Origin: Paraspadella gotoi
Taxonomy: Eukaryota > Animalia > Chaetognatha
Direction: 5' to 3'
NCBI GenBank assembly: GCA_051294375.1
Contig: CM119267.1
Span: 23,065,486 to 23,129,485, forward strand
DNA length: 64,000 nucleotides
Notes under the pieces: generated by a model
What the model was told of the DNA's origin: nothing
The model's database searches: none
The model's input: only the letters and a program-made list of their open reading frames with translations
Shown: positions 3,133 to 64,000 of the stretch, piece by piece
How the letters are laid out: each line of letters begins with the position of its first letter
How positions within the stretch are numbered: the first letter of the stretch is position 1
Program-made: the position numbers and the translations under genes

Positions 3133-3399
3133 ATGGAAGGAACCTTGCTTTTCATGGTGATGTTGGGAGTGGTTTCGCTCGTCAGCGCCTTCATTTGCGG
3201 CGCGGGCGTCTGCGTGGAAAGACGGTGGACGTCCTCGACTCCAAAGCCAGCTTCGGACCGGAAGGAACATGACGTTGGTCTGCCTAACGCGAATCTCCCG
3301 ACCTACGAGCAGGCCGTCGCCGCCTCGCCCCCCTTTCCCGAGCTTTTCTTGAAGGTTTCCGGCGCCGGATTCGATGAGCCGCCGGCTTACGTTTTGTAG
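3133..3399 (+). CDS. Small single-pass membrane protein with PY motifs (LPTY, PPAY)
   Basis: 88-aa GC-rich ORF in AT-rich background; N-terminal hydrophobic segment, juxtamembrane cysteines, LPTYEQA and PPAY motifs; splice acceptor TTTTAG at about 3080 upstream. Confidence 0.7.
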   Translation: MEGTLLFMVMLGVVSLVSAFICGAGVCVERRWTSSTPKPASDRKEHDVGLPNANLPTYEQAVAASPPFPELFLKVSGAGFDEPPAYVL

Positions 3400-3565
3400 A
3401 CGCCACTGAAGGCCTGACGAGGATGGTAGATTTCCATGGTATTTAGTAGAGTGGAGCACTAGGGAACAAAAATTTTATTTTATTTTGAGTGAACAAACAA
3501 GGATATTTAGATGTAAGATAGTATGATTAAGGAGTTAAAAAATATTTTGCTTATATTGTTTGTGG

Positions 3566-3998
3566 AACAGTATCATTAATTATAATATATTTATAATAAT
3601 ATCCTTATAAAATAATAAATTTTCAAAATAATTTTTAAAAAATTTTATTAAAGATTCTGATTCTGATTCTTCATAAAAAGTTAGATCAAAAATATAAAAT
3701 ATGTTATTAAAAATTTCAATGTTTTTAGAGTCAAAAATGGAAAAAAAATCAAATTTTTTACTTTTTTACGCTTTATAGTAAAAACTATTATATGATGGAA
3801 CGTTTTGGTCCTTTTTCGCAGCTTTAACCTAAAAATATCATGTATAATATTTTTATACAATAATACAATAACAATGTAAAGTTTTTCAGTCTTTTCCGGC
3901 GAATCCGAAACTATTTTTAAAATTAGAAAAATATGATTTAAAAATTTTATAACTTTATAAGGATATTACTATAAAAAAATTTAATTAATGACACTGTT
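3566..3998. mobile_element. AT-rich MITE-like element with imperfect terminal inverted repeats
   Basis: Left AACAGTATCATTAATTA...ATCCTTATAAA matches the reverse complement of right TTTATAAGGATATT...TTAATGACACTGTT over at least 45 nt; no coding capacity; target-site duplication not clear. Confidence 0.6.
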
Positions 3999-4101
3999 AT
4001 ACAATTTTTTTTTAAAAAGGGCTTAATTATTTTTTATTACATGTACAAAGGCAGCAAAAAAACATTGTTTCATCGCTCAATCTTTACATCACTCCACCCT
4101 A

Positions 4102-4383
4102 GTATTTAGTGTTTTGATGAATTAAAGACTTCCTCGTTCTCTTTTTTTCAGTACTTCTTAACAAACCTATTACAAAGTATCATAATAATGATTACGGTCT
4201 TGAAGGTTTCCGGCGCCAGATTCGATGAGCCGCCGGCTTACATTTTGTAGACGCCACTGAAGACCTGACGAGTATGGTAGATTTCCATGGTATTTAGTGT
4301 TATGATAAATTAAAGACTTCCTCGTTCTCTTTTTTTCTTTACTTCTTAACAAACCTATTACAAAGTATCATAATAATGATTAC
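4102..4383 (+). repeat. Local duplication: about 90-bp direct repeats flanking a 100-bp copy of the 3' end of the PY-motif gene
   Basis: 4102-4194 repeats at 4290-4383; 4197-4298 is a near-identical copy of about 3346-3447. Confidence 0.9.
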
Positions 4384-60803: not shown

Positions 60804-60877
60804 TCTCTCTCTCTCTCTCTCTTCCTCTTTGTCTCTCTCTCTCTCTCTCTCTCTCTCTCTCTCTCTCTCTCTCTCTC
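60804..60877. repeat. (CT)n microsatellite upstream of CNIH4
   Basis: Interrupted CT run read directly. Confidence 0.95.
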
Positions 60878-61165
60878 ACAGCCGTTATGGCCGCCTTCTG
60901 ATCTATTCGGTCGAGACTCGAAAAGAATAGATTCACTCCTTGAGGCGTTTTTGCCTTACTTTCCACTCACTTCCTCTCTCTCTCCCACTTTCTCCACAGA
61001 TTCTTTAACTAATTCCCCTTTTATGAAAAACTCTTGCGATTCCCCCATTTCGTCGAATCGATCTTCGGAAACGGAAACTCGAATGACGTCGAATTCGTAG
61101 CGGAGAAAAAGAAGAGACTCACGATTCACTCATTGATCTCATTTTTTTGAGGACGAAAAAACAAG

Positions 61166-62072
61166 ATGAATTTGGACGTCGCCGTCTTCGTCTATTCTTT
61201 CTTCGGCGGCGCCTTTTTGTTATTTCTCACGGGTAAAGACGAAGCGCCGGGTTTAGGTTTGAAAGTTAATAGAATTATGCTAATAAATCAAAGATAGACG
61301 GATATATAGCTTAATCAGAGATGATTCACCAAATAAGGGTTCTATTTCTTTCCAAGATAAAAATCAAATGTGAGAAAGTTCTTTATTTAGTATCCTTTCA
61401 TGTAAATTGTTATTTCGTTTATAGTTTATTTCATCATTACGCTGTCGGATTTGGAATGCGATTATATCAATGCGAGGCAATGCTGCTCAAAGTTGAACAA
61501 GGTACACATTTTAATTTTTTTTAGTTTTCACATTTAATCATACTAAGTATTTACGTACTTATTTTGTCACCAACTCTTTTCACCCATTTTCCTTCTTCCT
61601 TCAGTTCGTCATCCCGGAGATGGTCGTTCACGCCACCATCTGCGTGGGATTCCTTCTAACGTGGCACTACATTATGTTCCTCATCACGTTGCCAATGACC
61701 GCCTGGAATTTGAGGTAAAACGTTGCTAATGATAGTTACAATTAAACGGGCGTCATTTTGATCTCTTTCAATATGATCTTAAAATTAAATTAAAGTTAAA
61801 TTCCTTTTCTTCTTCCCCAGAAAATCGATCAACCTCCGACCTGGGAATTTAGGATACTACGATCCCGCCGGTAAGCGCGAAAAACTCTCTTTAACTATGA
61901 ATTTAAGATTAATCTCGTCACCTCCACATTCCTCTGCCTCACCTCAGAGATTCACAATCGAGGTCAACTGAAAAATTACCTTAAAGAGACAATGATCAAA
62001 CTGGGCTATCATCTCGTCTGCTTCTTCCTTCTCCTCTACTGCATGATCGTCGCCTTGGTGCAGCAGGATTAA
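61166..62072 (+). CDS. CNIH4: Cornichon homolog 4
   Basis: [70 protein letters not shown] across five exons. Confidence 0.95.
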
Positions 62073-62516
62073 ACATCCCACAGTCGCCAGACTCTTTTCT
62101 TCATTTTCCGTCCGCCGCGTCGGATGTCGGGCAACTCGACGAGCGCGGGTTTCGCTCGCGTCTCCCATTCCTCATTACCTTCGATTTTTCTAGCCAAAAT
62201 TTCATCCCCCTAATCTATTGTGCCAAGAAGAACCGTTTAACGGGTTGAACAATCAACGTTCGCCTTTTTTGCCGATTTAGTTACATTTGTTTCGTATCTC
62301 GTCGCATCTAAAAATTTCTCGACGGTTTTTGTCTCCCTTAAATTCACTCGTGATTTTTGGGCGTTGATCAAATGCTTCATTATGGTTTAAACTAGATAGC
62401 GATGTTCTATTAATTTTTTTTCCAGTCTTTTCGCCATTGGGCTTTATTAAAAAAAAAAACATTAAAACTAAACGTACAAAAAAACAAGGGGCGTGGTTTT
62501 TGAAAATTCTTGGTAC

Positions 62517-64000
62517 ATGGCGGGTCGCGGATTTTCCGGTAGAGGACGCCCTTTCGGTTTCGGCCCCAACGAACCGAGGATGTTCTTCGGCGGATCCGGT
62601 CCCATGGGAAACAATGGCTTGATGGGACCGGGACCCGGTACGGAATAAAATAAATTTTTAAAGCCCCCCCCCCCATACCCCCACCAGTAAAAGCAGCTCT
62701 TTTACAACACTTTAATATTCCTTTAAAGGCTTTAACGGAGGAGGCATGCCGGCCCACCCGATGTCCGGCCGCGAACCCTTCGATAGATTCGGTCCTTTCG
62801 ATGAAAATCGTCCGCCAATGTGCGGCCCCCCATCGATGGGCCGTTTCGACGACCGTGTTCCCCCGCGTTTTCCCGACGACGCCCCACTCTATGTTCCGCG
62901 CGGAATGGACGGACCCCAGCGCGACCTATACTCCCGCTCTCCTCCGCCGATGCGTCTCATGGACGGGCGGGGATTCCAGGGCGGAATGAGAGGAGGGCGG
63001 GACTTCATGCGAGACCACCGCTCGAGAGAACGGTCCCCCTTGGATGAAGAGAGAGGTGGGTGTAACCTTTATTTGGATGTAGAGGAATTGCTTAATAAAG
63101 CGGTTCTTATATGGAAGTGCTTACTAACTTCAATAACTTAAATAATTGTGATATCATTGTTTAAACAGCGAGTCCAGCCCTCGGCAGTCAGCCGCCCCCT
63201 CCACCTTCGGAGGACGACACTCAAAACTCAGAACGTCGCCCTCTTATCTATAAACTCCTGGATCCTCTGTCGAACAAGAGCACGCCTTTGATTGGTCTCC
63301 AACATATGTACGAGCACCAAAACGAAGGACAGCAAGTGAGGTGAGAAAGCTTTACGTATTTGGAAGCGGGGCTCTAGGATTCGTGGGTATTTTTAAGTAC
63401 ATCTGCCCTTCTGTCGTCGTCGTTGTTTCAAATACTTTCAAATGCGGTCAAACTAATAATTCCCTCCTTTCCACACTGTTCCCATCTTCAGGTACGAGTG
63501 CCGGCTTTGCAAGGCTCTCATCAAGGACGCTTCCATCTTCCTCAAGCACGTGACTGGCGAACATCACAAGCGGAAATTCATCCAAGACTTTTACATGAAC
63601 TACGAATTTCTACTCAACACCGTCAACACCAAGAAGGAGCAGAAGGCGAAGATGGAGGAGTACGTCGCTGAGATCTACGAGAAGGATGGAAGGCAGAACG
63701 TGAGACTCGTCGTTGACGGGGAGGAGGTCTTTTGGGCGGGCGACGATAAGAGCGCCGAAAGACAGTCTCCGCCGCCGCCACCGCAGCCGATCAGAACGAA
63801 AAAACCTTCTTCCGCCAAACCGGTCGCCGACGACGTCGTCTCCTCGACATCTTCCACGATCGAATCGGATAAGAAGGATGACTATTCGCAGGCCGACGTG
63901 GACGAGATGCTCAAACGCGTCGTCAACGACTCTACCATCAAACCGGTTGGTGGCAGCCTCGGCCGAGGATTGGGCGGGGTGTTGGCCGGACTGAGAAACT
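62517..64000 (+). CDS. Gly/Pro/Arg-rich protein with matrin/U1-type C2H2 zinc finger (runs off the window)
   Basis: Low-complexity GP/RGG-rich N-terminus, then PLIGLQHMYE..YECRLC..FLKHVTGEHHKRKF; GT-AG exon structure. Confidence 0.65.

What the first reader, a model, noticed from the sequence alone, without database searches (positions are those of the whole stretch)
3133..64000. Operon-like architecture: 16 of 16 non-nested protein genes co-oriented, short spacers, splice acceptors in front of start codons
Seen: every recognisable protein gene except the nested one is on +, and the genes are functionally unrelated. Stop-to-ATG spacers are about 408 bp (eIF4A3-ENL), 451 (PQLC1-ZDHHC), 399 (Rel A-Rel B), 301 (Rel B-ANKRD27), 410 (ANKRD27-DCAF10) and 444 (CNIH4-ZnF). 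Each spacer has an acceptor-like site shortly before the ATG: TTTCTCCCTCGCAG 8408, T-tract-CATTATAG 22221, TTTTCTTAG 39643, CACTAAG-T-tract-CAG 42079, CACTAAC..CCCCTTTTACGTAG 45960, T-tract-CCAG 62425 (also TTTTCAG 5866). Established: this layout characterises SL trans-spliced operons of nematodes, tunicates and flatworms. Inference: 300-450 bp leaves little room for a 3' UTR, promoter, 5' exon and cis-intron, so these may be polycistronic units resolved by trans-splicing. The taxon is not identified here, so novelty depends on the lineage.
Basis: partly seen in the sequence, partly recalled or inferred. Interest (0 to 1): 0.8.

Follow-up and report, generated by a model that had tools for sequence, protein, structure and literature searches.

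The report
Arrow-worm spliced-leader operon cluster
Sixteen unrelated genes lie head to tail in what is very likely an arrow-worm (chaetognath) genome, and the closely spaced ones likely form small operons cut apart by spliced-leader trans-splicing, a mechanism already published for this phylum.

Summary
The layout is real: 16 genes on +, and the six short stop-to-ATG spacers measure as stated. The other 9 of 15 spacers are 0.8-9.9 kb. The named acceptor sites are no better than shuffled sequence gives.

The lineage is Chaetognatha. The window's PDIA3 groups (support 100) with two environmental transcripts that start with the published chaetognath leader SL2; 2 of 80 loci carry that motif. One leader junction is in register with window AG 29383.

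One contig identical to the window carries a non-genomic A21 tail on eIF4A3 at 8378. That is directly after an acceptor-like AG, 133 nt past the nearest AATAAA and 151 nt before the ENL start.

Best reading: about four small operons among separately promoted genes, not one 16-gene unit. No leader was seen on any mRNA from this window.

Operons and trans-splicing are published for chaetognaths (18% of genes in Paraspadella gotoi). This scan also reported an operon elsewhere in this genome (e1-10588163). The one possibly new point, from a single contig, is a Ciona-type junction where the tail is added at the splice acceptor itself.

The parts
3133..3399 (+). Small predicted membrane protein ORF (88 aa), first gene of the run; upstream exons not excluded
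   Evidence: open frame; no Pfam hit
5914..8121 (+). eIF4A3, 9 coding exons; upstream gene of candidate operon 1
   Evidence: clean model; DEAD domain; last intron 8012-8082 joined in X4 contig 14
8240..8245 (+). Only AATAAA in the eIF4A3-ENL spacer; both same-sequence contigs run on past it
   Evidence: contigs reach 8314 and 8378
8377..8378 (+). AG after which a non-genomic A21 tail is attached; candidate eIF4A3 poly(A) site and candidate SL acceptor for ENL
   Evidence: X3 contig 12, 8120-8378 with 0 differences then 21 A; acceptor score 6.4 bits
8407..8408 (+).
   Evidence: 9.1 bits, 57th percentile of real acceptors; use not shown
8530..13366 (+). ENL/AF9-like (YEATS + AHD); downstream gene of candidate operon 1
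14379..15776 (+). SET/NAP-family gene; a SET-like gene is SL-bearing in Spadella
16635..19170 (+). Unidentified spliced gene with hydrophobic stretches; model uncertain
   Evidence: no Pfam hit on the exon tested
20237..21848 (+). PQLC1-like (name from recalled PQ-loop motifs; start uncertain; frame break near 21435); upstream gene of candidate operon 2; a PQLC1-like gene is SL-bearing in Spadella
22231..24293 (+).
25064..28075 (+). GOLM1-like type II membrane coiled-coil protein (name recalled); 770 nt after ZDHHC with no AATAAA between, possibly a third member of operon 2
28819..28866 (.). CCAAT box, ERSE-like element (1 mismatch) and UPRE-like octamer within 50 nt; candidate own promoter of PDIA3
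   Evidence: motif consensus recalled; weak on its own
29382..29383 (+). Predicted SL acceptor of PDIA3
   Evidence: in register with the leader junction of L001 (12 nt to a shared GCCGGG); scores -1.6 bits as a cis acceptor
29470..31691 (+). PDIA3, 9 coding exons; lineage marker
32676..36038 (+). neuralized (NHR + RING)
37029..39263 (+). Rel-homology gene A (start uncertain); first gene of candidate operon 3
   Evidence: RHD_dimer E 1e-5, under cut-off
39663..41836 (+).
42138..45671 (+).
46082..51231 (+).
46731..47260 (-). Possible nested coiled-coil gene in a DCAF10 intron; unverified
61166..62072 (+). Cornichon (CNIH4-like); upstream gene of candidate operon 4
62517..64000 (+).
   Evidence: weak DUF7565 hit only

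Best explanation
The window is a gene-dense stretch of a very likely chaetognath genome in which the closely spaced genes likely form about four small operons (eIF4A3-ENL; PQLC1-ZDHHC; Rel A-Rel B-ANKRD27-DCAF10; CNIH4-zinc finger), set among genes that likely have their own promoters. Each operon would be transcribed from one promoter. The spliceosome would join the capped 36-nt chaetognath leader to an unpaired AG in front of each downstream gene, while the upstream mRNA is polyadenylated at or just before that AG. Shown: gene layout, spacer lengths, the leader on two PDIA3 relatives, one tail junction at 8378. Inferred: lineage, co-transcription, leader addition to this window's downstream genes, operon boundaries, and separate promoters for genes behind long spacers.
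For: Lineage: window PDIA3 sits in a clade with L001 and L002 at support 100. L002 starts with the last 25 nt of SL2.0 of PMC2481426 Table 3 and L001 with 20 of the last 21. Only 2 of 80 loci hold the 13-nt leader end, and the window has no exact copy. L001's leader junction is in register with window AG 29383. SET-like and PQLC1-like genes are among the 119 SL-bearing Spadella genes. Junction: a contig identical to 8120-8378 ends in 21 non-genomic A, 151 nt before the ENL ATG, inside the under-250-bp rule used to call P. gotoi operons. No short spacer holds a strong donor: best 1.5-5.6 bits, 2nd-16th percentile of 56 real donors. AATAAA occurs before the candidate AG in 1 of 6 short spacers, and that one is read through, against 8 of 9 long spacers; Ciona and Oikopleura operon upstream genes also lack it.
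Against: No leader was seen on any mRNA of this window, and no contig bridges two genes. The tail junction is one contig at depth 3.6, from runs whose RNA status is the tool's guess, and the tool warns that contigs do not prove an RNA end. The named AGs are at chance level. Donor scarcity is no lower than in shuffles (Fisher p = 0.25). The AATAAA contrast is confounded by length: within about 400 nt of the stop it is 5 of 9 against 1 of 6 (positions). The proposed acceptors leave upstream ATGs: 2 for ENL, 6 for DCAF10. An AATAAA at 46022 lies after the DCAF10 candidate AG, and ATTAAA at 62446 and 62461 after the zinc-finger one. A UPRE-like octamer lies inside the PQLC1-ZDHHC spacer. In P. gotoi non-operonic trans-spliced genes outnumber operon genes (5,586 against 2,643), so a leader does not prove an operon. 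The lineage rests on one gene, and neither tree held a named chaetognath, nematode, rotifer, flatworm or gastrotrich row.
Confidence: 0.75

Rival explanations
1. All genes are monocistronic in a compact genome. Each has its own promoter overlapping the upstream gene's 3' UTR, with or without leader addition to a short outron.
For: No bridging RNA or leader seen at any short spacer. Acceptor-like sites are at chance level. Most trans-spliced genes of P. gotoi are not operonic. A UPRE-like octamer lies in one short spacer.
Against: The eIF4A3 tail site leaves 151 nt to the ENL ATG and has no AATAAA within 133 nt. A 3-nt gap between tail site and acceptor is published for a Spadella operon. Overlapping promoters do not by themselves explain 16 of 16 co-orientation.
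Confidence: 0.17
2. The whole co-oriented run is one or two very long polycistronic units, and the long spacers are only long 3' UTRs.
For: 16 of 16 co-orientation. PDIA3, behind a 1.4-kb spacer, is predicted to take a leader. P. gotoi operons reach nine genes.
Against: Nine of 15 spacers are 770-9934 nt and 8 of those 9 hold AATAAA. A repeat block of about 8 kb separates DCAF10 from CNIH4. An ER-stress-type motif cluster lies about 520-560 nt before the PDIA3 acceptor.
Confidence: 0.05
3. The AGs are ordinary 3' ends of 5'-UTR introns, joined in cis to donors inside each spacer.
For: Plausible for genes behind long spacers: eIF4A3 has donors of 8-9.5 bits upstream of 5866, and CNIH4 has a 14.2-bit acceptor at 60999 with an 8.5-bit donor upstream.
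Against: In all six short spacers the best donor is at or below the 16th percentile of real donors. At eIF4A3-ENL any donor would lie inside the eIF4A3 3' UTR.
Confidence: 0.03

Closest known systems
Chaetognath SL-resolved operons: Spadella cephaloptera RPS14-PCNA (PMC2481426, sections 12-13 and supplement 3 read) and Paraspadella gotoi (PMC12460157, section 10 and passages read)
   Same: Same phylum by PDIA3 tree and leader; co-oriented unrelated housekeeping genes; tail site very close to the next gene; SET-like and PQLC1-like genes are SL-bearing in Spadella.
   Different: These particular clusters could not be checked against the P. gotoi operon table (spreadsheet too large to read). Candidate operon 3 holds two Rel-homology transcription factors, whereas P. 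gotoi operons are depleted of signalling genes. The tail-to-acceptor gap here is 0 or 30 nt, against 3 nt in Spadella.
Ciona intestinalis intercistron-less operons (PMC1488885, passages read)
   Same: Poly(A) attached right after an acceptor AG, with no AATAAA within 40 nt, as at 8378.
   Different: In Ciona the leader was mapped to the same site in 19 operons. Here one tail junction was seen, no leader, and a second AG lies 30 nt further on.
Oikopleura dioica operons (as described in passages of PMC1488885 and PMC7986045)
   Same: Intercistronic regions of 23-30 nt and no AATAAA; this matches the junction if 8408 is the acceptor.
   Different: Different phylum and leader sequence.
Caenorhabditis elegans SL2 operons and the minor SL1-type class (passages of PMC1488885, PMC7986045)
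   Same: Unrelated co-oriented genes resolved by a leader.
   Different: About 100-nt intercistronic regions and an operon-specific SL2. Chaetognath leaders are not operon-specific, and SL1-type operons keep AATAAA.

Membership tests
Chaetognath SL-resolved operons | Organism belongs to Chaetognatha | tested here: met
   PDIA3 clade with two transcripts carrying published SL2; one gene, no named chaetognath row in the trees
Chaetognath SL-resolved operons | Neighbouring genes co-oriented | tested here: met
   16 of 16 models on +; no minus-strand ORF reaches a Pfam cut-off
Chaetognath SL-resolved operons | Less than 250 bp between mRNA end and next gene (P. gotoi rule) | tested here: inconclusive
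   met for eIF4A3-ENL (151 nt to the ATG, one contig); 3' ends of the other five upstream genes not known
Chaetognath SL-resolved operons | Leader on the downstream gene's mRNA | tested here: inconclusive
   only ENL could be looked at, and no contig informed on its 5' end; leader seen only on PDIA3 relatives
Chaetognath SL-resolved operons | Leader absent from the gene's own DNA | tested here: met
   no exact copy of the 13-nt leader end in the window; 2-mismatch hits at chance level
Chaetognath SL-resolved operons | SL RNA gene in the genome (5S-linked in Spadella) | not testable with these tools
   no genome held; none in the window
Chaetognath SL-resolved operons | One promoter, polycistronic precursor | not testable with these tools
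   needs CAGE, ATAC or long reads; no bridging contig
Ciona-type intercistron-less operon | Poly(A) directly after an acceptor-like AG | tested here: met
   A21 after AG 8377-8378, one contig
Ciona-type intercistron-less operon | No AATAAA within 40 nt of the tail site | tested here: met
   nearest is 133 nt upstream
Ciona-type intercistron-less operon | Leader joined to the next base (8379) | tested here: inconclusive
   no contig informed on this
Nematode SL2-type operon | Operon-specific leader | not testable with these tools
   published as absent in chaetognaths

The most novel reading that the evidence does not exclude
Arrow-worm operons are resolved in the Ciona manner. [quoted passage not shown] This would be a protostome case of intercistron-less resolution, and it would also put two Rel/NF-kB-like factors under operon control. 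I found no such description for chaetognaths in two searches or in the three readable supplements of PMC12460157; the published Spadella gap of 3 nt already points this way.
Probability: 0.3. Interest if true: 0.55.

Novelty: new member of a known kind. Interest (0 to 1): 0.22.

Why it matters
As an operon cluster in an arrow worm it adds examples to a published, genome-wide phenomenon, so it matters little. The junction detail could matter more. How an upstream mRNA gets its 3' end when tail site and splice acceptor coincide was left open in Ciona (PMC1488885). A second, unrelated phylum with the same junction would suggest a recurring solution, and existing long-read data could test it.

Tried and rejected
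No whole genome is held, so no SL RNA gene search or genome-wide strand-run statistics were possible. The run search listed four runs and no RNA holder on record. Contigs were laid on 7400-9880 only: ENL had no cover and no 5' loose end appeared, which is no evidence either way, and the other five short spacers are untested. X1, listed with half of the words, gave only contigs under 90% alike, which look like the eIF4A1/2 paralogue; most X2 contigs were also unlike. Acceptor-like sites as evidence were rejected: near the ATG no short spacer reached p < 0.05 against shuffles. The best site anywhere in the spacers gave Fisher p = 0.015, but that test ignores position in the spacer. Donor depletion against shuffles was not significant. 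Strand asymmetry and CpG ratios did not mark promoters. ERSE-like matches are at chance level window-wide (4 seen, 2.7 expected). The nested ORF stayed unexplained. My first guesses from memory (gastrotrich, enoplean nematode, Xenoturbella) were dropped once the leader was found. A search for chaetognath Rel literature returned nothing specific in the 10 rows listed. The careful PDIA3 tree did not finish; quick IQ-TREE and FastTree versions were used, with short proteins and many hits left out. Automatic models of gene X, Rel A, Rel B, GOLM1-like and the first DCAF10 exons are rough.
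Full report
Observation. I read the whole window and built gene models from coordinates. Sixteen non-nested models lie on +. Eleven have a Pfam hit of the expected family on the exons tested, three of them under the cut-off. 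None of 198 minus-strand ORFs of 60 aa or more reaches a Pfam cut-off. Under independent orientations 16 of 16 has p = 3e-5, but neighbours are not independent and the window was chosen for this pattern. The six short spacers measure 408, 451 (or 382), 399, 301, 410 and 444 nt. The other nine of 15 are 770-9934 nt.

The acceptor argument is weak. I trained splice matrices on 56 internal introns of the window (58-259 nt long). The best donors in these spacers are poor (2nd-16th percentile of real donors). That argues against cis introns inside them, but it is not lower than shuffles give (p = 0.25).

Lineage. A PDIA3 exon found unnamed environmental proteins as nearest relatives. Over the full length they are 70-75% identical, against at most about 60% for named animals. 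The window falls in a 12-row clade of these at support 100, apart from the named molluscs, annelids, bryozoan, arthropods and deuterostomes. A metagenome scan gave 206 relatives, of which the best 80 were kept. Two of them, L001 and L002, join the window's clade at support 100. L002 begins with the last 25 nt of chaetognath SL2.0 and L001 with 20 of the last 21 (PMC2481426 Table 3). No other locus of the 80 holds the 13-nt leader end, and the window holds no exact copy. Ten other loci share a different leader, which I recall as the copepod one; this shows such contigs keep leaders. The organism is therefore very likely a chaetognath. The species was not determined, and the trees lack named chaetognaths, nematodes, rotifers, flatworms and gastrotrichs.

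Trans-splicing in this window. After its leader, L001 has 12 nt and then GCCGGG. After AG 29383 the window also has 12 nt and then GCCGGG, and both stretches start ATT. L002 has a longer gap. So 29383 is the predicted leader acceptor of PDIA3, although it scores only -1.6 bits as a cis acceptor: real leader acceptors here need not look like the sites a reader would pick. SET-like and PQLC1-like genes are among the 119 SL-bearing Spadella genes (supplement 3 of PMC2481426, read whole); I saw none of the other window genes in that list.

The eIF4A3-ENL junction. Contigs of four runs were laid on 7400-9880. X4 contig 14 joins the last eIF4A3 intron and runs to 8314. X3 contig 12 matches 8120-8378 with no difference and then has 21 A that are not in the DNA. 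Both runs belong to one study and their RNA status is a guess by the tool, though the splice and the tail fit RNA. The tail follows an AG preceded by a pyrimidine tract (6.4 bits). The only AATAAA is 133 nt upstream and both contigs pass it. In Ciona operons the tail sits right after the acceptor AG and AATAAA is usually missing; in Oikopleura the gap is 23-30 nt (PMC1488885 passages). In Spadella the one mapped operon has a 3-nt gap (PMC2481426 section 13). Either reading fits an operon junction. It is one contig at depth 3.6, the tool warns that contigs do not prove an RNA end, and no leader was seen on ENL.

Not one unit. AATAAA occurs in 8 of 9 long spacers and in 1 of 6 short ones before the candidate AG. 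Long spacers have more room, and within about 400 nt of the stop the count is 5 of 9. A CCAAT box, an ERSE-like element and a UPRE-like octamer cluster at 28819-28866, upstream of the ER chaperone PDIA3 (consensus recalled, and I saw only the search listing). The ERSE-like matches are at chance level across the window, so this is only a hint of a separate promoter. A repeat block of about 8 kb with two N gaps lies before CNIH4. The simplest picture is four small operons among separately promoted genes, some of them also trans-spliced.

Against this picture: no bridging transcript and no leader on a downstream gene. Upstream ATGs follow some candidate acceptors (6 for DCAF10), and an AATAAA at 46022 suggests the ANKRD27-DCAF10 junction may lie closer to the ATG than 45960. 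Non-operonic trans-spliced genes outnumber operon genes in P. gotoi.

What is known. SL trans-splicing and an operon were described in Spadella in 2008 (PMC2481426; PMC2566580 passages). In P. gotoi 10,197 of 21,072 genes are trans-spliced and 18% lie in operons of up to nine genes (PMC12460157 section 10). Its operon table could not be read and may already list orthologues of these clusters.

Verdict. A real layout and a largely right guess, but a new example of a known system. Interest 0.22. The bold reading, a splicing-made 3' end as in Ciona, has probability 0.3 and would deserve 0.55.

Noticed in passing
window 1428-1590 (-): U1 snRNA gene, full length, 159.6 bits; the only Rfam hit in the window.
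   Followed up: partly
window 37029-41836: Two tandem, strongly diverged Rel-homology genes with no ankyrin repeats in the models, directly followed by an ankyrin protein. That protein has a VPS9 domain, so it is ANKRD27-like and not an IkB. Transcription factors are unusual operon members in P. gotoi.
   Followed up: partly
window 46731-47260 (-): Possible nested antisense coiled-coil gene inside a DCAF10 intron; no convincing Pfam or atlas match.
   Followed up: partly
window 51840-59930: Block of about three repeated 2-3 kb units with long inverted arms, many single-base indels between copies and two 25-N gaps; may be partly an assembly artefact. It includes a 48-aa piece (53917-54060) that resembles, from memory, the end of a DIRS-type tyrosine recombinase; no Pfam hit.
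   Followed up: partly
window 21435-21445: Frame break in the PQLC1-like gene, possibly a sequencing indel.
   Followed up: no
window 3350-3455 and 4198-4295: The 3' end of the first small ORF is nearly duplicated about 850 nt downstream (seen by eye).
   Followed up: no
window 5167-5174 and 25039-25048: A perfect CRE-like palindrome upstream of eIF4A3 and a GTCACGTGAC palindrome just before the GOLM1-like start (seen by eye; motif names recalled).
   Followed up: no
window 14272, 24960, 29383: The candidate 5' acceptors of SET, GOLM1-like and PDIA3 all end in TTACAG with a weak pyrimidine tract; possibly a leader-acceptor style distinct from cis acceptors.
   Followed up: partly
window 39400-39560: The Rel A-Rel B spacer holds 7 TGTA motifs and no AATAAA.
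   Followed up: no
L016, L023, L026, L027, L028, L031, L032, L041, L049, L052 (first 40 nt): Ten PDIA3 transcripts of an arthropod clade share another 5' leader, recalled as the copepod SL.
   Followed up: partly
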